Origin: a virus | Length of the DNA stretch: 64,000 nt | Reading direction: 5' to 3' (one strand) | Virus record (IMG/VR): IMGVR_UViG_3300042554_001073 | Shown here: positions 9,417 to 41,444 of the stretch, one piece after another | How the letters are laid out: every line of letters starts with the position of its first letter | How positions within the stretch are numbered: the stretch's first letter is position 1 | Made by a program: the position numbers and the translations under genes | The notes under the pieces: model-generated | What the model was told of the DNA's origin: nothing | Database searches by the model: none | What the model saw: only the letters and a program-made list of their open reading frames with translations

Positions 9417-9788
9417 CTAGTATCTAATATTTTTCCTTGGACGATAAGCAAAAAGATTGGTTGGTTTGGGTGGTTTCATCCACTCTTCTATGATGTAAAA
9501 CTTTTCTTCACAATAAAAATCTTGCTGAACATACCACAACTTCCAATGGTCATGTCCTTTAGATTGATTACAAGACTTACAGCAACATACAACATTCCTT
9601 GTAATATCCAATCCACCTTTTGATTGTGGAATAACATGGTCCAGAGTCAAATCTTCCTCCGAACCACAGTAAGCACATTTATGGTCCCAACTTTCTTTTA
9701 TTTGTTTTCTCCATAATCGTTTTGCTTCTGATTGACTTGTTGCGTGTAGATTGAACAAGTATTCTTCAGGCGATTGGAGAGGTCCCAT
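9417..9788 (-). CDS. HNH endonuclease
   Basis: CAYCG...LTLDHVIPQSKGG...NVVCCCKSCNQSKG. Confidence 0.9.
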   Translation of the reverse strand: MGPLQSPEEYLFNLHATSQSEAKRLWRKQIKESWDHKCAYCGSEEDLTLDHVIPQSKGGLDITRNVVCCCKSCNQSKGHDHWKLWYVQQDFYCEEKFYIIEEWMKPPKPTNLFAYRPRKNIRY

Positions 9789-12344: not shown

Positions 12345-12470
12345 AGGGTAAGTAAAAAGTCCAGGGGGAACTGGATGTTACGTTATTCCCCACACCACCC
12401 TCCAGTGTGGGTATGAGAGACGTAATTTATACTCCCCATAGGTCTCGGTTAATGGGAGTCGCAAAGATTA
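12345..12470 (-). ncRNA. PhotoRC-II-like structured psbA leader RNA
   Basis: CTCCCAT...ATGGGGAG, GAGAC/GTCTC, CCCACAC...GTGTGGGG and CCAG...CTGG pairings in the psbA 5' UTR; resembles the cyanophage PhotoRC-II motif from memory. Confidence 0.7.
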
Positions 12471-12501
12471 AAGAACTGTTACATTCCTTAACCTGTTGAT
12501 G

Positions 12502-12611: not shown

Positions 12612-12803
12612 ATGCCAAGGGAATGGAACACTCCTAAAAGAGAACCTTGGAATGCACCGATACATAATATTCTAAAAGCAATAGACAATCACACTCAAGA
12701 ATACTTCAAGAGTGGTGATATGTGGCATCTACAAAAAGCAGAAAACTTAAGACAATATCTTGACGAACTAAAGACCTGGATACATAAACAAGAAGGAAGA
12801 TGA
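12612..12803 (+). CDS. Hypothetical protein
   Basis: MPREWNTPKREPWN...; TATAAATA late promoter at 12563-12570. Confidence 0.7.
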   Translation: MPREWNTPKREPWNAPIHNILKAIDNHTQEYFKSGDMWHLQKAENLRQYLDELKTWIHKQEGR

Positions 12804-12970
12804 AATCAGCACTTCTCATTGGACTCGTGATTATGAGACTCATAACCAATGAGGGATTTTTTAATGAAAATAGAAGACCACAACCAAAACGACAACCAGC
12901 AGAAGTCATTAGATTCATTAGAAGACCTGCCAAAAGAGGTAGGAAAAAATCGTGGTTCTATTCTGAATAA
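12800..12970 (+). CDS. Basic 56-aa protein with hydrophobic N-terminus
   Basis: ATGA overlap with upstream ORF; MKSALLIGLVIMRLITNEG...RRPAKRGRKK. Confidence 0.55.
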   Translation: MKSALLIGLVIMRLITNEGFFNENRRPQPKRQPAEVIRFIRRPAKRGRKKSWFYSE

Positions 12971-13190
12971 ACTTATCTTTTTTGTCTGTTGTTCCGTAAT
13001 TGGATTTGTTGGTATTAACTTTATTGCTTGTAACTTTATGGTTCCTGGAACCATCAATAGAGCAAATGTAAAAGGAGAATTAAAAAACCCTCCTCCTTTA
13101 GATTGTAAAGAATCCGAAAGAAGAGGATATGAAACTTTACTGACAATCTTAACTACAGTAATTGCGTTAAGAACCAAGTTAGAAGATTAA
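12849..13190 (+). CDS. Putative membrane protein (start uncertain), convergent with the lysin
   Basis: Two hydrophobic segments (LIFFVCCSVIGFVGINFIAC; LLTILTTVIAL). Confidence 0.55.
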   Translation: MRDFLMKIEDHNQNDNQQKSLDSLEDLPKEVGKNRGSILNKLIFFVCCSVIGFVGINFIACNFMVPGTINRANVKGELKNPPPLDCKESERRGYETLLTILTTVIALRTKLED

Positions 13191-13678
13191 GAACTCCAAA
13201 GTTTACCCTCAGCAGTTCTTCTACGAGCAAGTCCTTTCTCTACATTAGTTCCAGGATTGCGATAAAGATATAAAGCATCAGGAACTTTTGACCATTCCTT
13301 ATTTTTTAGGCATTTAGTAATAGTATTAAAGCCAGAACCACCGTAAAAACTGGCACCAAGATTATAAGCGAAGCTGAGCAGAGCGCCTCTTTGTCCATCT
13401 GTCATTTCTCCCCAATAAGGAATTCTCTGAAGTGATGGAAGAAATCTTTGCTCAAGATCAAACATTAATAGTTTGTCAGCATAATCCTGTGTAATCTTTC
13501 TTCCAAGTTTAAATGGTTGACCATTAAAATCTTTAGTGCTACCCCACCCAATAGTGATAGGAAGTCCACCAGTCAATGGGTCAGGATAAGCATTTAAGTG
13601 ACATCCCTCAAACTCCTTAATTAAATCAACACCACATTGAGGGATTTTAGATTGTGGCGTCGATTCTACTTTTTTACG
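13187..13678 (-). CDS. Phage lysozyme (GH24) domain in the -1 frame, lacking its own start codon
   Basis: LIKEFEGCHLNAYPDPLTGGLPITIGWGST, ALLSFAYNLG, GLARRRTAEG; frame opens just after a TGA at 13679-13681. Confidence 0.88.
   Translation of the reverse strand, partial: RKKVESTPQSKIPQCGVDLIKEFEGCHLNAYPDPLTGGLPITIGWGSTKDFNGQPFKLGRKITQDYADKLLMFDLEQRFLPSLQRIPYWGEMTDGQRGALLSFAYNLGASFYGGSGFNTITKCLKNKEWSKVPDALYLYRNPGTNVEKGLARRRTAEGKLWSS
13603..13675 (-). promoter_or_regulatory. Programmed -1 ribosomal frameshift signal (A_AAA_AAG plus H-type pseudoknot)
   Basis: Heptamer 13675-13669; stem 1 13665-13653/13636-13624 (13 bp); stem 2 13645-13637/13611-13603 (9 bp). Confidence 0.8.
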
Positions 13679-14364
13679 TCAAAGATTCTTCCCCAACCAT
13701 CATTGCCTTTGGGGCACCATCTACGTGCTAATTCACTACGTTTATAAACAGCACCTTTACCATTATTTACAGATCCAGTATAACCATCATTCAACGAACC
13801 ATAAGGATCATTGACAACATAATCGCCTGATGGGGTCTTACCAATCACAACTACCATATGCCCACCTGTGGGGTTAGATAGAGGACCGCGATGAAGAATA
13901 CCAATAACAACAGGTCTACCAGCGGCAAGCTCTCTATCAAGATCAGCAAAAGAAAGGCTATAAGAAAAACTGGATTTAATACCGTATGACGCAAGAACCT
14001 TGGTCTGAACCAAGTGATCAGTTGTGTCACCGATTGAGAAAACTTTTTGTACATAGGCGTCATCGCCCTTAGGTCCTTTTAGTGTACCAGGTTTGAAATA
14101 CTCAAGACACATAGCACAAGCAGAAGAGTTACAGGTTCTGTTAGCGTCTCTGTAATTATCTGTCTGTGGATAAAAAGGAACTTGTAAAATACTTGATTGA
14201 GGTTTGTCCTCTTTTGTTCTAAAAATTCTTACCCAATTAGCATCATCCTGTACTAATTCTTGAGCTTTCAGAAGCAAATCTTTTTCAAGTTGCTCTACTG
14301 CCACAACGTGTTTTGGATTTTTTTCGTCGTAGAATTTAAAGAAGTTATGAAGATCTATGAGCAT
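13666..14364 (-). CDS. C39-like cysteine peptidase with N-terminal lysin-associated domain
   Basis: QTDN...TCNSSACAM (Cys), GGHMVVVIG (His), VNDPYG (Asp). Confidence 0.85.
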   Translation of the reverse strand: MLIDLHNFFKFYDEKNPKHVVAVEQLEKDLLLKAQELVQDDANWVRIFRTKEDKPQSSILQVPFYPQTDNYRDANRTCNSSACAMCLEYFKPGTLKGPKGDDAYVQKVFSIGDTTDHLVQTKVLASYGIKSSFSYSLSFADLDRELAAGRPVVIGILHRGPLSNPTGGHMVVVIGKTPSGDYVVNDPYGSLNDGYTGSVNNGKGAVYKRSELARRWCPKGNDGWGRIFDVKK

Positions 14365-14425
14365 TATACTATCCAAACCCTGCACTATATTTATTAAAAA
14401 AAGGAGGGTTTTATCCCTCCTTTAC

Positions 14426-18897: not shown

Positions 18898-19701
18898 TCA
18901 AGAGTTTTGCTGTTGGGTAAAAGAACTTTCTGTTACTCTTCCAAGATATGGATCATAGTTCATATAATCTTTGATATCAATCTGAGCTCCATTTTGCTGC
19001 CAGAAATTTGATAGGGCATCATAATTTCCTTTATGAAAAGCATCAATGTGTTCAGGATGGATAGATGAACCAAGTTCAATTCTGTAAAGAAGAAGAGGAA
19101 TGCTATAAGTGTTTCCCGAATTGTAAATCAAATCATCTGCTACTGGTCTTGGTTTTACACCATTATCCAGTCTATATTTTTCATCACCTTTGACATGATA
19201 CTTAAGTAGTTTTTTAGCATGGTGTCTAGTGATTAGATAACAAGCGGTAGAAAAATCATTCACAAATCTCTTGTGAAGTTTTACATGAATATCTCCAGTA
19301 CAGATAATGGCAATCTGAACTACATCCCAATCATATGGAATATGTGAGTAGAAATCTTGCCAGGTAAAGTTCCAATACTTTACCAAATCTAAGTTACAAT
19401 CATCCTCCATGATGATAGCATAAGAACTATCAGAGTTTTCATACCAATATTTGATTGCTTTAAGATGTGACGTAATACATCCGATTTCGCCAGATGACAT
19501 CATTTCAGGATAACGACCAGTAATGATATCACTCAAATCATCATCTCTACCATCATAAGCAGAGATTCGTGTATAGTTTTCAATCTCCCAATACTTAAAT
19601 TGAGATTCCATATAATCCCTTCTTTCAATCTGCTCATCAAGATTGATGTAGTATATCGGACCAATATTTTTAAGTTTGAAAGTTGATTTGTTCTTATCCA
19701 T
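18898..19701 (-). CDS. Glycosyltransferase family 25
   Basis: YYINLD...R, EIGC..SH, IMEDD. Confidence 0.85.
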   Translation of the reverse strand: MDKNKSTFKLKNIGPIYYINLDEQIERRDYMESQFKYWEIENYTRISAYDGRDDDLSDIITGRYPEMMSSGEIGCITSHLKAIKYWYENSDSSYAIIMEDDCNLDLVKYWNFTWQDFYSHIPYDWDVVQIAIICTGDIHVKLHKRFVNDFSTACYLITRHHAKKLLKYHVKGDEKYRLDNGVKPRPVADDLIYNSGNTYSIPLLLYRIELGSSIHPEHIDAFHKGNYDALSNFWQQNGAQIDIKDYMNYDPYLGRVTESSFTQQQNS

Positions 19702-20512
19702 TATACTTTTTAAGATAGTCCTGTTTTGAATAATACTCTAATAGTTGCTCTCTATTCATCTGCTGTATTTTTTCCCACTCTTCCATATTAGAAGACATGT
19801 ATGGATTATTGAACCAAGAGTTTTCTCCCCTCGAATGCTCTAGATGATAGACATAATTATTGATTCTACCAACATTATATCCCAGAGTTACAAATCTGTA
19901 AAATCTTTCTTTATCTTCTGGAGCGTATGCTTTAAAGTTTTCATTTTCCATTCCACCATCAATGTAGACTTGGCGGTTAAAGAACTGAACCCAACCAAAA
20001 TCTGATGTATGAACATTCGAATGTTTCTCAAGATAATCAAAGTCTCCAGTTTGTAAAAACTGAGAAACTACTTCATCAGTCGCATTAACTTGTTTCTGAT
20101 ACATTCCTTGCCCATAAGGATATATTACATCATGAGTGTGATGAAGGATTGATTGATATGCTTCGTGATAAGAATCTAACGGAAGTAATACATCACAATC
20201 ATAGTTAACTACTATTTCTGTATCAGTAGAAATGATCATTTCATTTAGAACCTTTTGGCGATGAAATAATGGTTCATCACTTTTTTCAAAGATATGTTGA
20301 ACATCTACATCAACTTCCAAAATATCTTTAAGGATAGGAAGAGCATCTCTTATAAAGATTGACTCTGAATCAACTTCTTTGATTATAATATTTGTATTAA
20401 AGTTTTCAAGAAGAAACGCTGTGGATGTAATAACATTTCGCAGTCTATCTGGAGATTCAATGCGAATTGGAATGATAAAGGTAGCTTTAGATAAATCAAT
20501 TCTAGAATCCAT
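19694..20512 (-). CDS. Galactosyltransferase-like GT (GT7 C-terminal domain)
   Basis: IIPIR...DR, NYDCD, GGMENENF..Y.PED.ER, YHLEH. Confidence 0.75.
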   Translation of the reverse strand: MDSRIDLSKATFIIPIRIESPDRLRNVITSTAFLLENFNTNIIIKEVDSESIFIRDALPILKDILEVDVDVQHIFEKSDEPLFHRQKVLNEMIISTDTEIVVNYDCDVLLPLDSYHEAYQSILHHTHDVIYPYGQGMYQKQVNATDEVVSQFLQTGDFDYLEKHSNVHTSDFGWVQFFNRQVYIDGGMENENFKAYAPEDKERFYRFVTLGYNVGRINNYVYHLEHSRGENSWFNNPYMSSNMEEWEKIQQMNREQLLEYYSKQDYLKKYNG

Positions 20513-21360
20513 CACAAAACAATCCAATCAGAACAATATAGGTCTTTCGTATCTTTGTCAGCATAGGCAGGACCAAACCACATTTTTGGAGCAATCACTT
20601 TCTTATTTGGGTTAGATTGTAACCATGCTCCCCACCAACTCATAGAACTATTGGCAATGATGGCATGTGAACAAAGTGACATCAAACAAAGATCCGTATA
20701 GGGTAAAAAGGATCCATCATCATACTTATACTGAGGTTCCGAAATAAAAAATCTGTCACCAGAGAAAAACTCCTGCTCTTTAACCCAATCAACAGAATCA
20801 GAAAATACAACTACAGGTTGATTTTCATCAAACTCATGTAGTGCCTTTTCATAATATTCCAATGACTGAACTGGATGTTGGTCAGAACAATTTACATATG
20901 CCCATTTAAATCCTCTTGGGTCTACAAGATTTGGATCTCCACGGCGAACATGAAGCATAATGGGTTCTTGACCATCAAACTGTTCTATAAACTCTTTACA
21001 AGGTTCTAAATGCTCATCCAAAAAAGTGAAGTCCTGTCGGATGATATCTGAAATATGCTTGAAATATTTTTCAGACTGAAAAAATCCATAGAGACTTACG
21101 TTGTCGGGACAAGTCTCAAATAGATTTTCGTCAAAATGGAAATGCCCCTCTTGGACATAATTTTCACCTTCAATGTATCCCACAGGAATGTGATCGAATT
21201 TGAAGCATTCGTGAAGACTATAGTTCTCGATTCCTTTATTTTCTGGTGAAGGAATTGTAATGTCATACTGATGTTTTGCTGCGATTCCACGTAGGGCAGC
21301 AAACTCAAACATTTGATTTCCAAGACGACCAAGATGACCTAGATGATTAAAACCTATCAT
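20512..21360 (-). CDS. Alpha-1,2-fucosyltransferase-like GT11
   Basis: GRLGNQMF, YGFFQSEKYF, HVRRGD, IIANSSMSWWGAWL. Confidence 0.9.
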   Translation of the reverse strand: MIGFNHLGHLGRLGNQMFEFAALRGIAAKHQYDITIPSPENKGIENYSLHECFKFDHIPVGYIEGENYVQEGHFHFDENLFETCPDNVSLYGFFQSEKYFKHISDIIRQDFTFLDEHLEPCKEFIEQFDGQEPIMLHVRRGDPNLVDPRGFKWAYVNCSDQHPVQSLEYYEKALHEFDENQPVVVFSDSVDWVKEQEFFSGDRFFISEPQYKYDDGSFLPYTDLCLMSLCSHAIIANSSMSWWGAWLQSNPNKKVIAPKMWFGPAYADKDTKDLYCSDWIVL

Positions 21361-22226
21361 AAGAATTTCAAAAGATTATTTACTCGATTGATGAAGGTAT
21401 GATTTTCTTTAACGTAACTCATTGCCTCTTTCATATTTACACTCTGATTAATCTCCGCTTCCAGAAGATTTTGATATAGTGTTTGTGGGGTTCCACCAAA
21501 AACAACATAATCACCAAGAGCACGTTTTACTAATGGTGAGTTGGTTCCAGTGATTCTACCATAACTAATATTCTTCCACATCCTACATGGAACATATCCA
21601 TGCTGAAGATGAAAATCGCTTCTAAAATCTGGACATAAAAAAGACTCTCTAATGAGATTCCGATTTTCTTCATCACTGGCATTCTGCGTATAAACCATAA
21701 ACTCAACGCCATGATTCTTACTTATGATATTAGCAAACTCCTGTGCCCACCAAGGACCTTGTTCATACAACATTGCGACATAATGTAGTTTTTTTGCTTT
21801 AGGATTAAATACTACATAATCATCAACATCAATCTCACTTGGAAGAAGATCGGTTCCCCATGGTTGATATAATGTTCTAGTTTGACTATCCCAATATGTA
21901 AGATCGGAAATCTTTTCATGGACTTCCTCTCTTGGTAGATAGTTTCCCAGTTTTAAAATATTCTCATAAGGTATTCCTTTTTCAACAAGTTCGCCCTCAG
22001 GAAAATGATGTGTAATATACTTACAATCTTTTCTTATTGGCAGACCTCTCTTTACAGAATCTTCAACAAAAATTAAAGAGTTTGATACATCAACGGAATC
22101 TACATCAGTTGTATCAACCCAATAAGTTTCCCACCCAAGTTCCTTAAAAGCCCTATAGTATCCATTCTGAACATAACTATGAGTCGATGTATGTAACTTA
22201 TGTGCCCAGATTATTACTTTGTTCAT
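21357..22226 (-). CDS. Putative glycosyltransferase
   Basis: C-terminal GT-B-like PCRMWKNISYG...HTFINRV; cluster context. Confidence 0.55.
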   Translation of the reverse strand: MNKVIIWAHKLHTSTHSYVQNGYYRAFKELGWETYWVDTTDVDSVDVSNSLIFVEDSVKRGLPIRKDCKYITHHFPEGELVEKGIPYENILKLGNYLPREEVHEKISDLTYWDSQTRTLYQPWGTDLLPSEIDVDDYVVFNPKAKKLHYVAMLYEQGPWWAQEFANIISKNHGVEFMVYTQNASDEENRNLIRESFLCPDFRSDFHLQHGYVPCRMWKNISYGRITGTNSPLVKRALGDYVVFGGTPQTLYQNLLEAEINQSVNMKEAMSYVKENHTFINRVNNLLKFL

Positions 22227-22969
22227 TCAGAATATTCCCAAGTATCAAAAAAATCTTTATGCTTTTCTTCAAGATATTCTAACTCACTTTGAATAAACTG
22301 CCAAGAGGTTCCGTCACCCTCAATAACAATATCATAATTTATTTTTGAAGTTGCGTTATTGGGATGTTGTCTACCTGTTGTCAGAACATCATTTATAATA
22401 AGAGGCATACCATGTCTCATACGAAGACGATGATACCACTCATGATCCATACTTAGAGATACGTTTGTATCAAAATATTCAATATCCCGATTTCTAATCG
22501 TAATATTTGTAGGACAACCCAAAAGATTATTACCAACTAAAAGATGTTCGGGATATTGAGGAACTCTAGTATCAAAGTAATTAACAGAATCATAAGTATG
22601 ATTAAAAGAATTGACCAACCAATACTTATCACTATTATCCAAGGAGTCTACAATAATTTTAAAAGCGTCTTTAGAATAAAGAAAATCATCACAATGTAAG
22701 ATTTTAATATACTCTCCCTTACACAAATCCATTACAAAATTTGAATTGGCAGACATGCCAATGTACTCAAGATTCTTTTTATAGACAATATTAAATTTAT
22801 CTTCATAAGTCTTACACAATGTTTCTGCCAAATCATTTTTTGAGTTGTCAGAAATAACAACCTCATAATCGGTAAAAGTTTGTTCTAGTATACTATCGAG
22901 ACATTGTTTTAAATAAGACAAATCTCTTTCATCTTTAATATAAGTTGGTATGGCAACAGAGATTTTCAT
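22223..22969 (-). CDS. Glycosyltransferase family 2
   Basis: ISVAIPTY, EVVISDNS, GEYIKILHCDD. Confidence 0.88.
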   Translation of the reverse strand: MKISVAIPTYIKDERDLSYLKQCLDSILEQTFTDYEVVISDNSKNDLAETLCKTYEDKFNIVYKKNLEYIGMSANSNFVMDLCKGEYIKILHCDDFLYSKDAFKIIVDSLDNSDKYWLVNSFNHTYDSVNYFDTRVPQYPEHLLVGNNLLGCPTNITIRNRDIEYFDTNVSLSMDHEWYHRLRMRHGMPLIINDVLTTGRQHPNNATSKINYDIVIEGDGTSWQFIQSELEYLEEKHKDFFDTWEYSE

Positions 22970-23757
22970 AGTAAAGTCCAGTGAGGTAAGTAAAGATCTT
23001 GTGTTGATAAGTGAGAACCACCAGAAGAATACCAGTTCTTAGGAGCAACGACATTCTTAGAATCTGCTAACCATGCTCCCCACCAACTAAATGAACTGTT
23101 GGCAATGATATGATGAGTACACATAGTCATCAAACAAAGGTCCATAAGATTATTGCCAGTTTCAGAAACTAAAAATCTATCTGGTTTAAACAAGTCCTGC
23201 TGCTTACACCAGTCAGTATCATCAGAAAAGATGAGAACTGGAAGACTGCTATCAAATTGTTCCAGTGCTTTTTGGTAGTATTCAAAACTACATTGTCCGT
23301 GAAAAGAGAAATGTTCTGGTTTCAAGTAGTCAGTTCTTCTTACATGTAGAGATATGACTTCATCAAACTCAAATGCTTCTTTGCATGGATTCCAAATTTC
23401 ATCCACAAAAGCGAAGTCTTCACGAATCTGATTTTCAATATTCTTAAAGTATTTTTCTGACTGAAAATATCCGTACAGACTTACATTATCTGGGCAGTTA
23501 TCTACAAAGTCCTGAGAGTAAACATGAGAACAGTTATCAGGTTCTTTATAATAATCTCCCTCAATGTATCCAATATGCGCTACACTAGGTAATTTGAATG
23601 CTTCAAATAATTGATGTTCATTCCACTGATCTCTAAAGTCTGAAGGAGGAATGGTAAACTCATAACCATTGCTAGCAGCAATACCTCTTGTGGCAGCATA
23701 CTGAAACATCTGATTGGCAAGTCTACCATTCTTCCCCAGGTGATTGTATCCAATCAT
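22966..23757 (-). CDS. Alpha-1,2-fucosyltransferase-like GT11 (second paralog)
   Basis: GRLANQMF, YGYFQSEKYF, HVRRTDY, IIANSSFSWWGAWL. Confidence 0.9.
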   Translation of the reverse strand: MIGYNHLGKNGRLANQMFQYAATRGIAASNGYEFTIPPSDFRDQWNEHQLFEAFKLPSVAHIGYIEGDYYKEPDNCSHVYSQDFVDNCPDNVSLYGYFQSEKYFKNIENQIREDFAFVDEIWNPCKEAFEFDEVISLHVRRTDYLKPEHFSFHGQCSFEYYQKALEQFDSSLPVLIFSDDTDWCKQQDLFKPDRFLVSETGNNLMDLCLMTMCTHHIIANSSFSWWGAWLADSKNVVAPKNWYSSGGSHLSTQDLYLPHWTLL

Positions 23758-23758
23758 A

Positions 23759-24466
23759 TTATTCTCCTAATTCAACTCCAGGGGGAAGTCTAAAATGAAA
23801 TCCGAAGGGCATAATACCTTCACACTCAGGAACTCTAACTTCCTGAGAAAATCTAACAGCAACTTCTACTGGAGCATATTTACATCCCTGCTCTAAGAAT
23901 ATGTGTCGATTATGTACACATACATTACCATCCTCGTGGTAATTTACAACTCCTTCTGGCATCCAATAGAAGTCGCTATTGTTTGTTTCCCAAGGAACTT
24001 CAACCTTATTTGGAACATCAAGAAACTTTTTACTTCTCAAAGAAAATCCACCATTACCAACTCGATGATGATTACCAAAAGGATCGATATAAGCGTCTTC
24101 AGCGTATGGCCAAGGAGCACCAATGTAATCATAATTCAACCAATCATTATCCCATTTTTCTGGGAACAAGACAAATCCATCTTGTTGAACTAATAGGCAA
24201 TGAGATGTATCTACATGTTCTCCGAGTTTATAGACAACATAATAGTTGTAATCATTATAACTACTGATTTCAATCTTTGGTTCTTCCAATAAGATACCAT
24301 CGTCCTTGAGAGAATCTTGGTATTGTTCTATATTTTCTGGTGTTGTTATTATCTTAACACTACCATAACTAATACCATTCATACTTGTGTAAACTGCTTG
24401 AATGGTTTCTTCTATTCTATCAGTAGTATCAATTGATATTAAGGTTACTCTATTTAAATCAATCAT
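23759..24466 (-). CDS. DUF5672-like glycan-cluster protein
   Basis: LLVQQDGFV...W...YDYIGAPW, VGNGGFSLRSK, FGFH. Confidence 0.75.
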   Translation of the reverse strand: MIDLNRVTLISIDTTDRIEETIQAVYTSMNGISYGSVKIITTPENIEQYQDSLKDDGILLEEPKIEISSYNDYNYYVVYKLGEHVDTSHCLLVQQDGFVLFPEKWDNDWLNYDYIGAPWPYAEDAYIDPFGNHHRVGNGGFSLRSKKFLDVPNKVEVPWETNNSDFYWMPEGVVNYHEDGNVCVHNRHIFLEQGCKYAPVEVAVRFSQEVRVPECEGIMPFGFHFRLPPGVELGE

Positions 24467-25760
24467 TAGTAAAGGATTCAACAGTTTTGTCAATATAATC
24501 AATCATCTTTTGATTGATAGTGGGAGAGCATCCAAGGAAGAACACTTTGTCTAGAACTTGGTTTGCTTCTGGATATTTAGTGGCATCATCAAGATGACTA
24601 TATCCAGGATGAAGGAGAATATTACCAGCAAAGTAATTTCTAGTTTGGATTTTATTCTTCTCCAAATAAGCAACCAAAGATCTCTTTAGATTTTTATCAT
24701 CGCAAATAATGGGAACTCCAAACCAACTAGTTTCTGCTCCTTCTCTTTCATTAACAACTCTTACTCCAGGAATTTTTTCTACTATTTCCTGAATGGCATT
24801 TTTATTACTTCTACGAATGTTATGAATTTCCTCAAACTTCAAGAGTTGAACTGAACCAACTGCTCCTTGCATATCCAATGGTTTGAGATTGTATCCCATG
24901 TTAGAAAAGACATACTTATGGTCAACAACATCATCATAACTCTCCAACCAAGTATCAAATCTTTTCCCACATACACCATTCGAAAGAAGATTTTGCTGAC
25001 CTACACAATAACAACCTCTACCCCACCAGGCAAAACTGCGGGCAAGGTCAACAATACCTTTTTCATTGGAAGAAACCATTCCACCTTCAATAGTACAAAT
25101 ATGGTGGGCAGGATAGAAAGAACAAGAAGCAGCAATAGCATGGTCCGTAAGATAGTTTCCATACCACTTGCTACCTAGACTATCACAGTTGTCAGCAATA
25201 ATGGCGATACTATTACGTCTACACAAATCAACAAACTTGTTAATGTCATATGGATTGCCAAGAACAGGCGACGAAATAGCAGCAACAGTTCTGTCAGTAA
25301 TCTTATCTGCGATTTGATCAATATCCCAGTTCAAGTCTTCCCAAACAATGTCAACAAAAACTGGTTTTAGACCACATTGAACAATAGGTGCTACAGTTGT
25401 AGCAAACCCACAAGCACAAACAATAATCTCATCACCATCTTTCCACCCAAAATATTTTTTAAGGGCAGCAAACATTACAAGGTTGGCAGAACTTCCAGAG
25501 TTCACCATCACTGAATGTTTGAAGTTAAATTTGTTTGAGAACTCATGTTCAAACTTATTAACCTTTTCTCCAGAAGAAAGCCACTTTCCTTTTAGAACAG
25601 AATGAATAAGTTCTCTTGCTTCTAGATCATCCCAGTATGGTCCAGAATAATAGACACTATCTTTTCCCGCAACGAATTCTTTTTTATTGGCAATGAATGG
25701 AAAGATATCTCCATCCATTTCTTTTGCGGACTCTATGAATTTGTCAATCAGTTGGTACAT
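24459..25760 (-). CDS. rfbH: DegT/DnrJ-family PLP enzyme, RfbH/DdhC (E1)-like NDP-4-keto-6-deoxyhexose 3-dehydratase
   Basis: SFYPAHHICTIEGG (His in place of Lys), GRGCYC...CGKRF, YNLKPLDMQ, TR..FAGNI..HP. Confidence 0.8.
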   Translation of the reverse strand: MYQLIDKFIESAKEMDGDIFPFIANKKEFVAGKDSVYYSGPYWDDLEARELIHSVLKGKWLSSGEKVNKFEHEFSNKFNFKHSVMVNSGSSANLVMFAALKKYFGWKDGDEIIVCACGFATTVAPIVQCGLKPVFVDIVWEDLNWDIDQIADKITDRTVAAISSPVLGNPYDINKFVDLCRRNSIAIIADNCDSLGSKWYGNYLTDHAIAASCSFYPAHHICTIEGGMVSSNEKGIVDLARSFAWWGRGCYCVGQQNLLSNGVCGKRFDTWLESYDDVVDHKYVFSNMGYNLKPLDMQGAVGSVQLLKFEEIHNIRRSNKNAIQEIVEKIPGVRVVNEREGAETSWFGVPIICDDKNLKRSLVAYLEKNKIQTRNYFAGNILLHPGYSHLDDATKYPEANQVLDKVFFLGCSPTINQKMIDYIDKTVESFTND

Positions 25761-26566
25761 AATTCTTCAATGATTTTTTCGATGGAGGTTGTTTGCTCAA
25801 ATCCAAGATTCTTTAACTTAGTGGTATCAAACCAAAAATCTTTTGTTTGTACTAGTTTGTGAAACTCAGGTGCTTCTTTATACTTTACTTGAGATGAAGA
25901 GTTTAGATACTCCTTTGCTGTATTGATTATATCACCAATTGTGGTTGGTTGTCCACTACCGACATTATAAATCTCATTTATATTTCCAGTATCACATATA
26001 AGTTTTATTGCTCTACACACATCATCGACATGCATTACATCTCTTATTGGAGTGCCATCATCATACAAATAAACATCTTCATTATTTTTCAATAGACTTA
26101 CCATATAACTTAAAGCATTCTTTTTTGAAGATGCTTTACCGTCACCAACACCAAGCACATTACAAAGTCTTATTATCCTATACTTTACATTATAAGTTTT
26201 ACAAAAGGAGATTAGTAAATCTTCCGCTGCTTTTTTTGTAATTGAATAAAATCCTGTTGGGGAGCAGGAGTATTCTTCTTTTGCTGGTAATTGAGTTTCC
26301 CCGTAAACAAACCAAGAACTAATAAAATTGAAAGTGATGTTAGAATCTCTACAAAAATCCAAAACTTCACAAAGAACCTTGAGGTTGGTTTCGACATCTA
26401 GAGTGATATTTGAATGAACATTATAATTGTCTACTGTTGAAATCAAATATAAAATATTTTTTGTTCTTGGTTTCCTTTCCTCTCTATTTTGCCTCAAAAC
26501 AAAATCTGGGTAGAGATTACAAAATCTACTACCCACAAATCCAGAAGCACCATATACACTAATCAT
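25748..26566 (-). CDS. NAD-dependent epimerase/dehydratase
   Basis: GASGFVG, YSITK, RDVMHVDD. Confidence 0.88.
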   Translation of the reverse strand: MISVYGASGFVGSRFCNLYPDFVLRQNREERKPRTKNILYLISTVDNYNVHSNITLDVETNLKVLCEVLDFCRDSNITFNFISSWFVYGETQLPAKEEYSCSPTGFYSITKKAAEDLLISFCKTYNVKYRIIRLCNVLGVGDGKASSKKNALSYMVSLLKNNEDVYLYDDGTPIRDVMHVDDVCRAIKLICDTGNINEIYNVGSGQPTTIGDIINTAKEYLNSSSQVKYKEAPEFHKLVQTKDFWFDTTKLKNLGFEQTTSIEKIIEELCTN

Positions 26567-27555
26567 TTCTTCCAATAATCGTAAATATTTTTTTCTACCT
26601 CATACTCCATAACCTTCACTTTTCGGTTTGGTTGTTTCATTGCCCAAACAAACATCGATTTAATCAACTCTTCAAGATTGGTTTCATCTCTAAAGTCCAG
26701 AATAGTTTTTGCTTTTGTATGATCGCAGTATGCGTGTTTAACTTCATGCCTTGGTTCACCATGCTCTATTGGAACTTCATATCCATACTTCTTCCCAATC
26801 TTCTGAACAACTTCAGCAACTTCATTAAGAGTGAAGTATTTGTCCGCACCAATATTGAATATTTCCCCATCATAATCCGTAAGAAGTTTATCAAATGGTT
26901 CCATATAATATTTAATATCAGAGAAAGCACGAGTCTGTTCTCCATCACCATAAACTAAAATAGGTTCTCCATTCAGAGTTTTGCGAATAAAAATGCCGAT
27001 TACATTGCGATACTTGTCCCAAATGTTTTGATAAATGCCAAGAACGTTATGAGGACGAACAATATTATAACGAAGTCCAAACTGCTCATGAGCGAGTTTC
27101 AAATCACATTCAACAGCATACTTTGCCACACCATAAGGATCCACTGGTTGTGGGCGCTTATCTTCGGTAAATGGAGGTTCTTGTTCTCCATATACTGCCA
27201 TACTTGAAGTAAAGATAAACTTCGTATCGTAATTGATACACTCATTGATTAGGTTGGCAGAACAAATAAGATTGTTTCTATAGTTAAAATTACGAATAAA
27301 GGGGGATAATCCTTCCGCAGCATATGCAGCAAAATGAAGAAGAACATCTGGATTATGTTCTTCAAAAAGTTCAGATACTTTTTTTCTTCGCTCCAAATCA
27401 AATTTAACAAAAGTAAATTTTTCTGCTTTAGGAACAAAAGCTTTATATCCACCCGACAGATCATCAATACCAATCACCTCATGCCCATTGGCTAGGAGAT
27501 GTCGTGTATAGTTTGCGCCAAGTAGTCCAGCGCATCCAGTAACAAATATCTTCAT
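26563..27555 (-). CDS. NAD-dependent epimerase/dehydratase (extended SDR)
   Basis: TGCAGLLG, YGVAK, RPHNV.G, RAFSDI. Confidence 0.9.
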   Translation of the reverse strand: MKIFVTGCAGLLGANYTRHLLANGHEVIGIDDLSGGYKAFVPKAEKFTFVKFDLERRKKVSELFEEHNPDVLLHFAAYAAEGLSPFIRNFNYRNNLICSANLINECINYDTKFIFTSSMAVYGEQEPPFTEDKRPQPVDPYGVAKYAVECDLKLAHEQFGLRYNIVRPHNVLGIYQNIWDKYRNVIGIFIRKTLNGEPILVYGDGEQTRAFSDIKYYMEPFDKLLTDYDGEIFNIGADKYFTLNEVAEVVQKIGKKYGYEVPIEHGEPRHEVKHAYCDHTKAKTILDFRDETNLEELIKSMFVWAMKQPNRKVKVMEYEVEKNIYDYWKK

Positions 27556-27560
27556 AACTT

Positions 27561-28160
27561 TTACTTTGATAAAATGAAAAATCCATTTCCATATGGATAC
27601 TGATCAATCCATTTTTGTTTGATTGATCCAAGAGAATAAGAAAATCTTTCCAGTCTAAATCCCTGAGACTCAAAAAGATTTATCCACCATTCTTCATCTT
27701 TTTTAGTGACATGAGTGATATCAACTTCATACTCTCTGATTCTAAACCTATCATCATCTCCCAAGGGAACAACAAAGAAAAACTGCGATGCTTTTCTTTT
27801 TAGAGTTTGAAGAACATCTGGTAAGTCAACCTCTTCAACATGCTCAAGAACATCTTTACAAATCAATAGATCATAATGATTATCATTTGGTAGAGAAACA
27901 TAATCTCTAACATTTGGATGACAGTTTTCTACAGCATATTCACTAATGTCCTCACCATAAGCATCACATCCAATAATACGAAGAGCATTAACTAGAAAAC
28001 CTTTAGCACATCCATAATCAACACAACTTTTAAAAGCAAAAGTGTTTTGAATATCTAATGCTTCTGGAATAGACCTAGTAGGTTCCCACTTGTAGTTTTC
28101 ATATCCAGAGATGTGTTTTCTAACACCATCTTCATAATAGTCTTTAGTGAAAAGATGCAT
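27561..28160 (-). CDS. Class I SAM-dependent methyltransferase
   Basis: VDYGCAKGF, G.DISEYA, DLLIC.DVLEH. Confidence 0.85.
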   Translation of the reverse strand: MHLFTKDYYEDGVRKHISGYENYKWEPTRSIPEALDIQNTFAFKSCVDYGCAKGFLVNALRIIGCDAYGEDISEYAVENCHPNVRDYVSLPNDNHYDLLICKDVLEHVEEVDLPDVLQTLKRKASQFFFVVPLGDDDRFRIREYEVDITHVTKKDEEWWINLFESQGFRLERFSYSLGSIKQKWIDQYPYGNGFFILSK

Positions 28161-28161
28161 A

Positions 28162-29295
28162 TCAAGCAAAGTCATTATGTTCAGTTTCAGTAAGAATATC
28201 GTCAATCAGTTCATTTTGGATAGCGTACTTACAGTAGTGGCAAGCATGATGTCTAAGAGTTGGTGGCTTATTATAGAATTCTTCTATACCATCAATATCA
28301 CAAACAGCAAACTGAGACTCTGGAACGTAGTTATAGTTATTTTCAATAGACAACTCAGCGGAAGGACATGCATAAATGTACCCATCGGTGAATAGAAATG
28401 GTTTAACCATGTGCATATAGCAGTGGTCATTTCTACGTTCACCTTTAAAGTTAAAGTCTGACAGGAAAGCATACTTTAACTTCCTACCACGATCCTGTTC
28501 GTAGTGCTCAATTACTCCACGAATAGTTTCAATGTCCTTCTCAGTTTCTTTTACATCCTTAATGGCATTAAAAGCGATACGACAAGGAATACCGTTCTCC
28601 TCTACCCAGTCTAACATACGAATGAAGTTTTCGGTAGTCTGGAACTTCTGAGATAGAACTCTCTTATTCTTTACATCAGTCCAATCGCCAGTGATGTTAG
28701 GGTTCTTAGATGTTTCTAGGTTTTCATCCCAAACATAAGCAGCAGATGGTTTACAATTAGTTCCCTCAAATACACTTAGGTCATACTCATAACCTTCATA
28801 GAAACCATACATACCAAGACGAACCCAATCAAATAGTTCTACAATATCTTTTTTGATTGGACGATCTGCCCCAAAGCGAGCACCATTTGTACAAATACCT
28901 AGACTAAATCCAAGGTCTTTGGCATATCTTACAATCTTTTTAAAGTCTGGGTGTATACTTGGTTCCCCACCACCAGTAAACTCAACACCAGTTACTCCAA
29001 TCTTTTTGAAACTATCAAGTGCTTGAAGAACTTTTTCTGTTGGGAGTTTCTCAGAGATGTCTCTGTTAGCAAAGCAACAGAACGAGCAAGTAAGATTGCA
29101 AGCATTCGTCAAGGAAATATGTGCCATCACAGGTGATGGTGGTTTTCCTTGTTGAAGTCCTTCTAGTTTATCTAAATGCTTGAGAAGTTTTGTTGCGTTA
29201 CTACTAAAACTTCTTCCTTGAACTGCGTCATCTTTTTTGACGAAAGTTCCATCATCATTAAAAATATTTGTACCCTTATATGGCAAGACAGTCAT
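28162..29295 (-). CDS. Radical SAM protein with C-terminal Cys-rich (SPASM/twitch-like) segment
   Basis: CNLTCSFC, FTGGGEP, TNG; C-terminal CY...YACP...CHYC. Confidence 0.9.
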   Translation of the reverse strand: MTVLPYKGTNIFNDDGTFVKKDDAVQGRSFSSNATKLLKHLDKLEGLQQGKPPSPVMAHISLTNACNLTCSFCCFANRDISEKLPTEKVLQALDSFKKIGVTGVEFTGGGEPSIHPDFKKIVRYAKDLGFSLGICTNGARFGADRPIKKDIVELFDWVRLGMYGFYEGYEYDLSVFEGTNCKPSAAYVWDENLETSKNPNITGDWTDVKNKRVLSQKFQTTENFIRMLDWVEENGIPCRIAFNAIKDVKETEKDIETIRGVIEHYEQDRGRKLKYAFLSDFNFKGERRNDHCYMHMVKPFLFTDGYIYACPSAELSIENNYNYVPESQFAVCDIDGIEEFYNKPPTLRHHACHYCKYAIQNELIDDILTETEHNDFA

Positions 29296-29325
29296 TTGTC
29301 AGTCTCCATGATGTTTTTCGCTGAG

Positions 29326-30072
29326 TTATTTATGGTCATGTATATAATCCCTTTCTACTAAGTTTTCATTCCAAATCAAGTAAAACATTCTTTCCATAAT
29401 ATGTGCCTCAGCACAAGTTGGATCGTGTGGAGGAACTGGTTTATAGTTTAGAACACTTTTTAGTTTTTCGTACAAATGTTTACTATACTTTAGAATATTC
29501 TCTTTGGGAACCGCAAAGTTTGAAGCAGGAATGAATTCTATTGTATCTGTTTTTGGTGGGTTAATAAAACACCAATCAAGAAGTTCATGATGACTTGAAA
29601 AGAATCTATCTTCCAAATCATTGTTGTAAGAATAATTACACCAAGCAACTGGTTGAATAAGTCTTCCATTCTGAAGAGTTTCAAGAGGAGTATAGTTTGT
29701 ATGACTATGATCTCCAACCAATAGTTTCTTGTCAACCCAAATACTAAACAACTCAGTTGTATCTAATGCTTGAAAAAACCTTTCCTTTGTTGTGTAGTAG
29801 TTTTCACCTCTAGAAAAAAGATTGCCCTTAACAAAGATCGAAACATCTGGAAGACAATCATAGTTATCTATTATGAAGTTCAATATATCATACTGATTGG
29901 CACCAAAGTTTGGAGACTTTGTTACTTTTCCAAGATGACTATAATCAACTTCAACATCACTTTTATCATAGATGAATGTATTTTCAGAAGAGAATCCATA
30001 AGGATGAGTTTCTTTCAACCATTCTAGATCCCAGTTGTAGTTAGAAACTACTAATGATTTACTATACGTCAT
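29326..30072 (-). CDS. DUF3431-like protein
   Basis: LVVSNYNWDLEWL, IYDK, N.G.NQYD...FIIDNYD.LPD, AHIMERMF. Confidence 0.7.
   Translation of the reverse strand: MTYSKSLVVSNYNWDLEWLKETHPYGFSSENTFIYDKSDVEVDYSHLGKVTKSPNFGANQYDILNFIIDNYDCLPDVSIFVKGNLFSRGENYYTTKERFFQALDTTELFSIWVDKKLLVGDHSHTNYTPLETLQNGRLIQPVAWCNYSYNNDLEDRFFSSHHELLDWCFINPPKTDTIEFIPASNFAVPKENILKYSKHLYEKLKSVLNYKPVPPHDPTCAEAHIMERMFYLIWNENLVERDYIHDHK
29327..29334 (-). promoter_or_regulatory. T4-type late promoter inside the sugar island
   Basis: CATAAATA about 30 nt upstream of the radical SAM start. Confidence 0.55.
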
Positions 30073-31022
30073 TTGTTTCCAGGAAATGGACCTTCACCTT
30101 TTAGGAAAAATCTTTCTTGTTTGAATCTTTCATTATAAAGATTATTCCTTAAACTATATTCTTCATACTCTTTCCAACACTCATCATAAGAAAAAAGATT
30201 TCCTTCTCTATCTTGATACATCCACCCACTATAAATGTTTTGTGGCATGGACCAATATCCATCAGAAACATTATGTCTTGCCCAATATTTTGGAGCAATT
30301 ATATTTTCAATAGTGTCACTAGTGAATACTGGGAAGAATGAGAAACTAGAGTTAGAAAGAATTACATGCTTAGAATTCTTAATTATAGCATAGTCCTTAT
30401 CAACAGTAAAATGATAAGCAGGTATTTCTGGGAGAATAGACTTAGACGCTTCTACATCATCAGTAATTGATACAAATCTCATATTTGGATTTATTTTAAC
30501 CATATTGTTCATGGCATTAATCCAATAGTCTCTGACTAAGAAGAGTACTGGATCATTCCTATACTCACCACCACGAACATTTAAGACACAAACATCATCA
30601 TCAATATATTCATAAGTATCATACTCTTCTTTTACTTTAAGCCACTGTTTTACAAGTTCCTTGTTGTGAATAAAATATCTTTCATCCTGCATATTACCAA
30701 ACATCAATGTGTTGTCTGGAACAGCAACAAGATTCTCATCAAACTTACTGATATGACATCCGTGTGTGCTATCGTGCCAACACGTTTGTAGGAACAATCT
30801 GGTATCTTTTTCATGATAGATATCCAATCCATCAGGAACAGGAGACCCATAATCAAGATCCATCCAATAGAATCCATTCTGATTGTATCGTTTATCTCCA
30901 GACCACCCAGTATCTTTTATTCCAAACTCAAGTCCCCTATCATGAGCGATTGACCTTGTTGTAACATAGCAAAATAGTTGGTTTCCTATTCCCTGACCAT
31001 TTAAAATTTCAGTAGCTAGCAT
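30069..31022 (-). CDS. GT11-like glycosyltransferase (third, divergent)
   Basis: GQGIGNQLF, NVRGGEY, ILSNSSFSFF. Confidence 0.75.
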   Translation of the reverse strand: MLATEILNGQGIGNQLFCYVTTRSIAHDRGLEFGIKDTGWSGDKRYNQNGFYWMDLDYGSPVPDGLDIYHEKDTRLFLQTCWHDSTHGCHISKFDENLVAVPDNTLMFGNMQDERYFIHNKELVKQWLKVKEEYDTYEYIDDDVCVLNVRGGEYRNDPVLFLVRDYWINAMNNMVKINPNMRFVSITDDVEASKSILPEIPAYHFTVDKDYAIIKNSKHVILSNSSFSFFPVFTSDTIENIIAPKYWARHNVSDGYWSMPQNIYSGWMYQDREGNLFSYDECWKEYEEYSLRNNLYNERFKQERFFLKGEGPFPGNK

Positions 31023-31026
31023 AGTA

Positions 31027-31908
31027 TCAATATTCTTTGATTAGATTAGCGTACTTATCCAAGTTGTCAAGGATGTATTGGGGGAAAGAATCGTCCATAG
31101 GGAATACTTTATAAGAAGCATATTCTCTACCAAGAGGATCAATATTGTCCTTTACTTTAGATACATTATTTTTAATAGCATCATTGTTCATTTCGGGATG
31201 TGATGAACACTCACACTTTTTAATCAGTCTTTCCTCAACAGTCAGTCCTTCACTACCAACATAACTCCAATGCCATCCACCAGGGAATATCCTAGAGTTC
31301 TTTTCATTTTCATGTTTAGACCTAAGTTGAGATAGTTCATATTTGTCAAGGATAGGTTTCCCAAATACCTTTGTTCCCAACCATCTTGGTCTGTCATTTC
31401 CATAATCAAAGTCTGGGGTCATTGCTCTGAGGATTCCAGTAACTTCAATCAAGTTCAAATAACTAATACAATTTTCCTGAGCAAAGTGATAGATTACATC
31501 TGTCTCAAAAAAAGACTTAAGTTCTGCTACAGCATCTGGATTTGGAACTTCATCAAGATCACCCCAAATGATAGCGTCCTCATCACCAACGTGCTTCAGA
31601 AGAAGTTCTTTTATAGTATCCTTCTGATAAGCGTCTCTCTGTTGTGCTTCAATCTGAGTCCCATACTTTCTACCATATTCTGATAGAAGAGATTTATCAG
31701 CGTCCTCAACAACATTATGAATTATCTTATGATTAAACTTTTCAAACTTATCTTTATTCTCTTGATAGTAGAGAATTTTATCATTACCTTGAAAATCTTT
31801 TGTTCCCTCACTCAGAACAAAAAAGTCTACATAAGGGTCAAGTAAATTCAATCTGATTTCAAGCAGATCTACTTCATTAAAAAATGGAAATACATCAAAT
31901 ACTTTCAT
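31027..31908 (-). CDS. Glycosyltransferase family 17 (MGAT3-like GlcNAc transferase)
   Basis: VFD.FPFFNEVDLLEIRL..L...VD.FV..E, QRD, DLDEVP, GGWHWSY. Confidence 0.85.
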   Translation of the reverse strand: MKVFDVFPFFNEVDLLEIRLNLLDPYVDFFVLSEGTKDFQGNDKILYYQENKDKFEKFNHKIIHNVVEDADKSLLSEYGRKYGTQIEAQQRDAYQKDTIKELLLKHVGDEDAIIWGDLDEVPNPDAVAELKSFFETDVIYHFAQENCISYLNLIEVTGILRAMTPDFDYGNDRPRWLGTKVFGKPILDKYELSQLRSKHENEKNSRIFPGGWHWSYVGSEGLTVEERLIKKCECSSHPEMNNDAIKNNVSKVKDNIDPLGREYASYKVFPMDDSFPQYILDNLDKYANLIKEY

Positions 31909-32758
31909 AGTCCTTCCTCATAGCATTAAAAACTTTAGCAATACCCTGGTCAATAGTAGTTTTTGGAGTCCACCATTTAGTAATAAAGGTGTCTGCCATA
32001 TTTCTTTTATCCAACTGAACACTATCTTTTTCTTCAGATGCTTTGATAACAACATCATATTTGCCCATAATAGCAAACTGACCAGCAATCATACTGGCAA
32101 TATCTATAATTTTTGTGTAGTGAAAACTTGTGATATGAAGATTATCTTCTGGTGTAAAATCAGTAAAGTTTTCCATCACTGTTTCAAGTGCTTCACAGCA
32201 GTCTTCAGCATAAAGAAAATCCCGTTGCTCCTGTCCATCAGTAAGCATATCAATTACACCGGTTTCAAATCCTTTACGAATAAAGTCAGTGATAACGTGT
32301 GCCTTTTCATGGTCTTTCTCAATACCATAGACATTCCAGAACTTCACAATCAATCCATTTAGTGACTTAGTATAAAGTTCACCAACGTTTTTAAGAACAC
32401 CATATGGAGAGTAACTCATGTTACTCATTTGAGAGGAAGCAAATACAAATCTCTTATTGTATTTTTTCAAGTACCCAAATGCATTTGCCATTAAACGAGC
32501 ATTGTTATCAATGAATTGGAAAGTGTGTTGATACTTTTTGAGATAACGAGAACCACCAACATCAAATGCAAGGAAGAATACAAAATCAGAATCTTGTATT
32601 GTCATTTCCAATGATGAATTTGGAATTCTGGTCATATCTTGGTGTTCATCATTGACAATATCAAACTCATGAACTGTATGTCCCTTGCCACGCAAGTATT
32701 CTGTAAGGTAGGCACCAATTTGCCCACTAGAACCCAGTACTGTAATTTTCATAGTCAA
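31895..32758 (-). CDS. NAD-dependent epimerase/dehydratase
   Basis: GSSGQIG, YGVLK, RDFLYAED. Confidence 0.85.
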   Translation of the reverse strand: MTMKITVLGSSGQIGAYLTEYLRGKGHTVHEFDIVNDEHQDMTRIPNSSLEMTIQDSDFVFFLAFDVGGSRYLKKYQHTFQFIDNNARLMANAFGYLKKYNKRFVFASSQMSNMSYSPYGVLKNVGELYTKSLNGLIVKFWNVYGIEKDHEKAHVITDFIRKGFETGVIDMLTDGQEQRDFLYAEDCCEALETVMENFTDFTPEDNLHITSFHYTKIIDIASMIAGQFAIMGKYDVVIKASEEKDSVQLDKRNMADTFITKWWTPKTTIDQGIAKVFNAMRKDYESI

Positions 32759-33804: not shown

Positions 33805-33826
33805 ATCAATAATCTCCTAGTATATA

Positions 33827-36825: not shown

Positions 36826-36828
36826 ATT

Positions 36829-36903: not shown

Positions 36904-36910
36904 ATAAAGA

Positions 36911-41031: not shown

Positions 41032-41035
41032 ACGA

Positions 41036-41108
41036 TGGGTCTGGTCGGGCTCGAACCGACGACTTACAGGTTAAAAGCCCGCTACTCTACCAACTGAGTT
41101 ACAGACCC
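41036..41108 (-). tRNA. tRNA-Lys(UUU)
   Basis: Loop CTTTTAA. Confidence 0.95.
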
Positions 41109-41444
41109 ATATAATGTGGAAAATATTCGGTTGTCGATGTGCTGGTGGTCTCTCAACCACCCTTTAAGAATACCACCGTTTGGTCTCTGAGGGGAGATTG
41201 GTGGACACTTAGGAAACTGTCACAAACAACAAAAAAGGGGAGGAAACTTTTGGTTTCTCTCCCCTGTCTTTTGCTTTTATGGATTACATCTTACATATGT
41301 TTTTCCATATCCACAAACAGGGGAGAACCCTCAATATGCCAATAGCGGCAATCAAGAATACTAAACTGTTTGATGGTGATTTGGAAAGACATTGTTTTCG
41401 ACCTAAGTGTGTTTATTTATGAGACTTTTATTTAAAAAAGTCAA

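What the first reader, a model, noticed from the sequence alone, without database searches (positions are those of the whole stretch)
13187..14364. Two-enzyme endolysin joined by a programmed -1 frameshift with an H-type pseudoknot
Seen in sequence: the C39-peptidase ORF ends GAC GTA AAA AAG TAG, containing the slippery heptamer A_AAA_AAG (13675-13669). The -1 frame opens only 3 nt earlier (TGA at 13681-13679) and reads KKVESTPQSKIPQCGVDLIKEFEGCHLNAYPDPLTGG..., a GH24 lysozyme. There is no ATG/GTG/TTG in that frame until 13576, which lies after the catalytic Glu (EFEG), so a complete lysozyme has no standard start of its own. Three nt after the heptamer lies stem 1 AATCGACGCCACA/TGTGGTGTTGATT (13 bp, 2 G-U). 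Its loop segment ATCCCTCAA pairs perfectly (9 bp) with TTGAGGGAT at 13611-13603, giving an H-type pseudoknot (L1 7 nt, L2 0, L3 12 nt). A purine-rich SD-like GGGGAAG ends about 12 nt upstream of the heptamer. Established: A_AAA_AAG with an upstream SD and a downstream structure drives -1 frameshifting in E. coli dnaX and IS3-family elements; in tailed phages it is mainly known for tail assembly chaperones and capsid proteins. Inference: the phage makes a 232-aa peptidase plus a roughly 392-aa peptidase-lysozyme fusion at a fixed ratio, throttling muramidase output. I do not know of a description of this for a cyanophage lysin.
Basis: partly seen in the sequence, partly recalled or inferred. 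Interest (0 to 1): 0.92.

Follow-up and report, generated by a model that had tools for sequence, protein, structure and literature searches.

The report
Frameshift-split cyanophage two-enzyme lysin
Many cyanobacterial viruses, including the lab model S-PM2, appear to use a programmed one-base ribosome slip so that one cell-wall-lysis gene gives a short peptidase and a longer peptidase-lysozyme, which probably pair through a shared small domain; genome annotations miss this and no protein has been measured.

Summary
Confirmed. The window is a T4-like cyanophage. ORF1 (232 aa: small N-terminal domain 'ND' plus C39 peptidase) ends on A_AAA_AAG-TAG, and a start-less GH24 lysozyme lies in the -1 frame (fusion 392 aa). 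Among 225 unique homologous loci, 139 of 140 with this layout carry a canonical heptamer of four types (A_AAA_AAG, G_GGA_AAG, C_CCA_AAG, U_UUU_UUU). A strong stem follows in 94% versus 9% expected, and is lost where the lysozyme gained its own start. S-PM2 shares it, so it is no homopolymer error. Stem 2 of the pseudoknot is limited to about 26 loci, without two-sided covariation; the SD is forced by the G-W-G codons. Found here: mirror loci keep the fusion in frame and use the same heptamer with a -1 stop 2 nt later (dnaX logic), and S-CREM1 has an internal start instead. ND is predicted to self-associate (0.80 vs control 0.09). Best reading: one gene makes two lysin subunits that pair through ND, rather than merely throttling lysozyme. 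This scan noted the basic frameshift on other genomes before; I found no paper on it. No expression data.

The parts
14400..14423 (-). Intrinsic-terminator-like hairpin closing the upstream peroxiredoxin gene
   Evidence: Redoxin PF08534 upstream
14388..14395 (-). T4-type late-promoter-like AATAAATA upstream of ORF1
   Evidence: sequence; ATAAATA lies within 80 nt upstream of 98 of 267 unique ND-C39 starts; function inferred
13666..14364 (-). ORF1, 232 aa: ND plus C39-like peptidase (short, 0-frame product)
   Evidence: (phrog_3617, phrog_10051 endolysin)
14206..14361 (-). ND, about 52-aa helical N-terminal domain found on cyanophage cell-wall hydrolases; predicted to self-associate
13801..14187 (-). 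Peptidase_C39_2 domain, papain fold; invariant Gln67, Cys78, His169, Asp186 (numbering with Met1)
   Evidence: catalytic roles inferred from the fold
13688..13694 (-). SD-like GGGGAAG 12 nt upstream of the heptamer; forced by G-W-G-R codons, role unproven
13669..13675 (-). Slippery heptamer A_AAA_AAG, followed directly by the 0-frame TAG
13624..13665 (-). Stem 1 (13 bp; 13665-13653 with 13636-13624), 3' stimulator
13603..13645 (-). Stem 2 of an H-type pseudoknot (13645-13637 with 13611-13603, over the F-E-G catalytic codons); subgroup-specific
13187..13669 (-). -1 frame: linker plus GH24 lysozyme, 160 codons, no standard start before catalytic Glu (13609-13607) and Asp (13582-13580); fusion = 392 aa
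   Evidence: dN/dS 0.04 upstream of the first TTG
41034..41109 (-). Phage tRNA-Lys(UUU); no tRNA-Lys(CUU) among the 22 tRNAs in the window (supporting context)

Best explanation
A late-expressed lysin gene is decoded into two proteins by programmed -1 ribosomal frameshifting. Ribosomes pause with two tRNA-Lys(UUU) on A_AAA_AAG in front of a stem (a pseudoknot in this subgroup). Those that stay in frame stop at TAG and release ND-C39 (232 aa); those that slip back one base read ...FDVKK-VESTP... and make ND-C39-lysozyme (392 aa). Shown by comparative tests: selection on heptamer, frame, stem and the start-less lysozyme N-terminus. Inferred: that slipping occurs and at what rate, that both domains cut peptidoglycan, and that the two products pair through ND so that the slip rate sets the make-up of a peptidase/muramidase complex (about 0.5 for this last step).
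For: 139 of 140 unique loci with an ND-less lysozyme in the -1 frame behind an ND-bearing ORF carry a heptamer; none lie in the +1 frame. [quoted passage not shown] The first A is kept under five amino acids (Val 33, Ala 60, Thr 6, Ile 2, Glu 1). Strong stem in 83/88, 23/23 and 10/11 loci vs 8-11% in synonymous shuffles, but in only 1/14 loci where the lysozyme has an ATGA/GTGA start at the stop; junction MFE z -2.1 to -2.6 vs about 0 in the main control; three two-sided changes in stem 1 and several unrelated stem sequences. 12 linker-length classes keep the frame; 27 loci have no ATG/GTG/TTG/ATH/CTG before helix 1. dN/dS 0.04 upstream of the first TTG. Present in S-PM2 and S-CAM7, whose annotated lysins are truncated. 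Mirror loci: 54/62 in-frame ND-lysozyme genes have A_AAA_AAG in the linker and 47/57 a -1 stop 2 nt later in four amino-acid contexts, against 1/202 other Lys-Lys pairs; likewise in-frame ND-C39-lysozyme fusions L118, L125 and ACG-2014f, in at least three places on the tree. S-CREM1 and L137 (lysozyme-ND-C39) have an internal AGGAG plus ATG just before ND. ND self-association model: score 0.80, best control 0.09, pLDDT at least 84, runs agree in at least 82% of contacts; the mark was reached by 20 of 30 solved homo-pairs and 1 of 23 single chains, counts that hold only roughly here. Phage and 60/61 genomes of the likely host family have tRNA-Lys(UUU); about 5/61 show a CUU version.
Against: No RNA, ribosome-profiling, proteomic or read data. 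Seven marine in-frame fusions lack any heptamer, and L060/L077 are fused by a seventh A, so two products are not universal. One clade (S-SRM01, L033) expresses an ND-less lysozyme from an ATGA overlap, so ND on the lysozyme is not essential. In the ND-lysozyme mirror group the stem does not beat synonymous shuffles and the members are related. C39 activity on peptidoglycan is untested.
Confidence: 0.85

Rival explanations
1. Frameshift is real but serves only to keep lysozyme low (lysis timing); the products act separately and ND is a cell-wall-binding or localisation module, not an assembly domain.
For: ND occurs with C39, GH24, M15, GH73, GH25 and GH19 domains and in tandem copies, as binding repeats do; an ND-less lysozyme clade exists.
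Against: Mirror loci make the lysozyme fusion by default and keep a truncating signal; ND-only short products with G_GGA_AAG (23 loci) have no enzyme to express; ND self-association model passes. Binding and pairing are not exclusive.
Confidence: 0.35
2. The lysozyme is a separate protein made by termination-reinitiation or initiation at a non-canonical codon (GTA overlapping the stop, or ATC in the loop); the hairpin is a termination-linked structure.
For: The -1 codon overlapping the stop is GTA in 117 loci and ATG/GTG in 14; coupling at ATGA clearly exists in relatives.
Against: It does not explain four canonical heptamers, the kept first base, or the mirror loci; the stem would bury a start; the stem is lost exactly where a true start overlaps the stop; GTA follows automatically from AAG plus TAR; no conserved near-cognate start.
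Confidence: 0.07
3. Transcriptional slippage on the A run (or T8 in S-CAM7) adds a base to some mRNAs.
For: Homopolymer runs; S-CAM7 has eight T; Thermus dnaX uses this route (PMC5009743).
Against: [quoted passage not shown]
Confidence: 0.04
4. Assembly error (A6 for A7) or a decaying pseudogene.
For: Two of about 120 related contigs (L060, L077) read A7 in frame; raw reads could not be examined.
Against: Same six A in 102 unique loci from independent samples and in two S-PM2 records; other heptamer types; lysozyme under strong purifying selection.
Confidence: 0.01

Closest known systems
IS3-family OrfA/OrfAB and lambda gpG/gpGT -1 frameshifts (PMC5009743)
   Same: Short 0-frame product plus longer fusion sharing the N-terminus; X_XXY_YYZ heptamer with 3' stem or pseudoknot; both products act together.
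   Different: Here the gene is a lysin, not a transposase or tail chaperone; both shift-in and shift-out polarity occur in one family.
E. coli dnaX tau/gamma (PMC5009743, PMC4344849)
   Same: A_AAA_AAG, single tRNA-Lys(UUU), 3' hairpin; the mirror loci copy its layout exactly (-1 stop 2 nt after the heptamer).
   Different: In this window the shift extends instead of truncating; the SD stimulator is not shown to be selected.
Two-polypeptide endolysins Lys170, LysIME-EF1, CD27L, CTP1L, LysP7951 (PMC9430671, PMC4777826)
   Same: One lysin gene, a full-length and a short product that share a small domain and assemble through it.
   Different: Those use an internal in-frame start and share a C-terminal binding domain, in phages of Gram-positive hosts; here a frameshift yields products sharing an N-terminal domain of no known fold, in phages of Gram-negative cyanobacteria. 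Assembly is only modelled.
Lactococcus phage phi-vML3 lysin (Shearman 1994, PMC201772, not readable here)
   Same: Cited by PRFect (PMC10885494) among lysins with a frameshift.
   Different: Described in PMC3111421 as overlapping genes giving a lysozyme-like and a holin-like protein; I could not read the paper, so it remains a possible precedent.
PHROG 3617 / ACG-2014f gp211 in-frame C39-lysozyme fusion
   Same: Same domain order and length (405 aa); covers both window frames.
   Different: Annotated as one hypothetical ORF; it carries the truncating version of the signal.

Membership tests
Bacterial programmed -1 frameshift (dnaX/IS3 type) | X_XXY_YYZ heptamer in 0-frame register inside the frame overlap | tested here: met
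Bacterial programmed -1 frameshift (dnaX/IS3 type) | 3' stem-loop or pseudoknot about 5-8 nt downstream | tested here: met
   in this window the stem begins 2-3 nt after the heptamer, so its first pairs would be melted
Bacterial programmed -1 frameshift (dnaX/IS3 type) | 5' SD-like stimulator 10-14 nt upstream | tested here: inconclusive
   present at 12 nt but forced by G-W-G; equal in non-shifting genes
Bacterial programmed -1 frameshift (dnaX/IS3 type) | Single tRNA-Lys(UUU) reading AAG | tested here: met
   host family inferred, actual host unknown, about 5/61 genomes have a CUU version
Bacterial programmed -1 frameshift (dnaX/IS3 type) | Trans-frame protein made in vivo | not testable with these tools
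   needs reporter, MS or ribosome profiling
H-type pseudoknot | Loop-downstream pairing supported by covariation | tested here: inconclusive
   98% paired in 23 loci, no two-sided change; catalytic Glu is GAG in 25/26 vs 29% elsewhere, other Glu codons vary
GH24 phage lysozyme (PF00959) | Profile match with catalytic Glu and Asp | tested here: met
   (E 4e-21); EFEG and YPD conserved, dN/dS 0.04
Peptidase_C39_2 (PF13529) | Papain fold with Cys-His-Asp | tested here: met
Two-polypeptide heteromultimeric endolysins | Short product from an internal in-frame start | tested here: not met
   window uses a frameshift; an internal SD plus ATG is seen only in S-CREM1 and L137
Two-polypeptide heteromultimeric endolysins | Products assemble through the shared domain | tested here: inconclusive
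   ND model 0.80 vs control 0.09: supports, does not show

The most novel reading that the evidence does not exclude
Cyanomyoviruses build a heteromeric peptidase/muramidase lysin on an undescribed N-terminal pairing domain, and have repeatedly evolved ways to set its subunit ratio from one gene: shift-in frameshift (four heptamers), shift-out frameshift (a one-base change in the spacer flips the logic) and an internal start. This would be the first family in which programmed frameshifting controls phage lysis and the first such two-product lysin for Gram-negative hosts.
Probability: 0.45. Interest if true: 0.88.

Novelty: new variant of a known kind. Interest (0 to 1): 0.78.

Why it matters
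How T4-like cyanophages lyse their hosts is poorly defined, and the lysins of S-PM2 (72 aa) and S-CAM7 (90 aa) are annotated without their catalytic Glu. The frameshift gives the correct proteins and a direct experiment in a cultured system. It extends phage -1 frameshifting beyond tail chaperones and capsids to lysis, offers a natural series of hairpin and pseudoknot stimulators and of opposite polarities on one gene, and would be a case of frameshifting in picocyanobacteria, whose own csoS2 does not shift (PMC12918739).

Tried and rejected
No whole genome is held for the window. Rfam: no family over the junction. ND: no Pfam family, no PDB sequence hit, best structural Z 3.2, viral hits only to cyanophage lysins; a missing match does not prove a new fold. 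SD as stimulator: no support beyond codon constraint. Pseudoknot as universal element: rejected, most loci have a plain hairpin. Stem in ND-lysozyme mirror loci: not above the synonymous null. Three first tRNA-Lys patterns failed their positive control and were replaced. Change-counting on the tree crashed on row names; only the topology was read, from a quick tree with few columns. Literature: ten searches found no report of a frameshifted cyanophage lysin; subscription journals are mostly not covered and Shearman 1994 could not be read.

Full report
Context. The window is part of a T4-like cyanophage genome (psbA, psbD, hli, ferredoxin, pstS, peroxiredoxin, 22 tRNAs). The closest isolates are Kyanoviridae: S-PM2, S-CREM1, S-SRM01.

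Observation. ORF1 (14364-13666) encodes 232 aa: a 52-aa helical N-terminal domain (ND) and a papain-fold Peptidase_C39_2 domain with invariant Cys, His and Asp. It ends on A_AAA_AAG-TAG. The -1 frame encodes a GH24 lysozyme whose catalytic Glu and Asp lie before the first standard start codon. A -1 slip gives 392 aa. In-frame A_AAA_AAG occurs only twice in about 15,800 codons of this AT-rich window.

Comparative test. From IMG/VR, metagenomes and isolates I classified 225 unique lysozyme loci. In 140 of them a lysozyme without its own N-terminal domain lies in the -1 frame behind an ND-bearing ORF; 139 have a canonical heptamer in the overlap: A_AAA_AAG 102, G_GGA_AAG 23 (upstream ORF is ND plus a short tail, no peptidase), C_CCA_AAG 11, U_UUU_UUU 3 (S-CAM7 group). 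None lies in the +1 frame. The first three are named as highly shift-prone in E. coli (PMC5009743). The first A is kept under five amino acids, while no other four-fold column exceeds 87% for one codon (class membership makes the 102/102 itself circular, the 139/140 is not). The lysozyme segment upstream of the window's first TTG has dN/dS 0.04, so it is translated. In 27 loci there is not even a near-cognate start before helix 1, and linker lengths from 51 to 99 nt all keep the frame. S-PM2 has the same signal and its annotated lysin is a 72-aa fragment. The loci are related, so counts overstate independent events; the independent evidence is the different heptamers and unrelated stems.

RNA structure. 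A stem of about 10-12 bp follows the heptamer in 83/88, 23/23 and 10/11 loci against 8-11% in synonymous shuffles; several unrelated stem sequences occur, and the folding minimum of the region lies right after the heptamer. In 14 loci where an ATG or GTG overlaps the stop, only one keeps a strong stem: the signal decays where the lysozyme has its own start. Stem 2 is kept in about 26 loci whose lysozymes are spread over the tree. There the catalytic Glu is GAG in 25/26 (29% elsewhere; other Glu codons vary), and 98% of stem-2 cells pair, but with no two-sided change; stem 1 has three. The pseudoknot is likely but not proven, and not general. The SD-like motif is forced by G-W-G and is as strong in non-shifting genes.

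Mirror arrangement. Where the lysozyme is fused in frame, the same heptamer often sits in the linker with a -1 stop 2 nt later, as in dnaX: 54/62 ND-lysozyme genes have A_AAA_AAG and 47/57 have the stop, as TAG or TAA across four dipeptide contexts; only 1/202 other Lys-Lys pairs form the heptamer. In-frame ND-C39-lysozyme fusions L118, L125 and ACG-2014f do the same; L118 has the stem of its shift-in relatives with a spacer one base longer. The stem in the ND-lysozyme group does not beat the synonymous null, so I put shift-out at about 0.65. S-CREM1 and L137 have the order lysozyme-ND-C39 with an internal AGGAG and ATG before ND, a third way to a short ND-C39 product (or a remnant of a gene fusion). 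Exceptions: seven marine fusions without a heptamer, two A7 fusions, and the ATGA clade.

ND. Its homologues with recognisable domains are all cell-wall hydrolases (C39, GH24, M15, GH73, GH25, GH19). It has no Pfam, PDB or fold match. Four copies fold with score 0.80 against a best control of 0.09, pLDDT at least 84, at least 82% of contacts shared between runs, as an intertwined pair; the mark was reached by 20 of 30 solved homo-pairs and 1 of 23 single chains, counts that hold only roughly here. This supports, but does not show, pairing.

Decoding context. The phage carries tRNA-Lys(UUU) and no CUU version in the window; 60/61 genomes of the Synechococcus lacustris family have UUU and about 5 have CUU. 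This is the single-tRNA condition that makes AAG slippery (PMC5009743).

Mechanism. Most likely, late transcripts are translated into ND-C39 and, by -1 slip, ND-C39-lysozyme (0.85-0.9). The two probably pair through ND, so that slip efficiency sets the peptidase-to-muramidase ratio (about 0.5). Pure throttling, non-canonical initiation, transcriptional slippage and assembly error are treated under rivals.

Known and new. It works like dnaX, IS3 and tail-chaperone frameshifts, and gives an outcome like the two-polypeptide endolysins of Gram-positive phages (PMC9430671, PMC4777826), but is not a member of the latter by their defining internal start. I found no paper describing it; phi-vML3 is an unread possible precedent. 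Earlier notes of this scan report the shift-in signal on other genomes; a word search found no note of the mirror layout or ND pairing. Verdict: new variant of a known kind, interest 0.78.

Noticed in passing
window 36751-41519 and 54735-54809: Cluster of 22 phage tRNAs, including tRNA-Ile(TAT), tRNA-Thr(AGT) and two CAT tRNAs.
   Followed up: partly
window 12400-12471 (-): PhotoRC-II RNA motif (RF01717) upstream of psbA, with a sigma-70-like promoter at 12535-12507.
   Followed up: no
window 12612-13190 (+): Three small plus-strand ORFs (63, 56, 113 aa) converge on the lysozyme, stop overlapping stop; the 113-aa one has a hydrophobic segment and could be a holin-like or membrane protein; no Pfam or PHROG match.
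   Followed up: partly
window 9417-9788 (-): Free-standing HNH endonuclease just downstream of psbD.
   Followed up: partly
L127:74-295 and 22 similar loci: ND-only ORF ending in a CPHCGK motif (half zinc site) before G_GGA_AAG; two copies could share one zinc on dimerising (inference).
   Followed up: partly
L433:2001-2687, L434:2001-2855: Tandem ND-ND-C39 genes on Pseudanabaena-type cyanobacterial contigs, without heptamer or lysozyme.
   Followed up: partly
L061:3681-4295 and 7 similar loci: Lysozyme with a divergent N-terminal domain (MTIKF...) started by an ATGA overlap, no heptamer.
   Followed up: partly
window 18898-35741 (-): Long run of about 17 ORFs of 210-430 aa; the first two read like glycosyltransferases; not analysed.
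   Followed up: no
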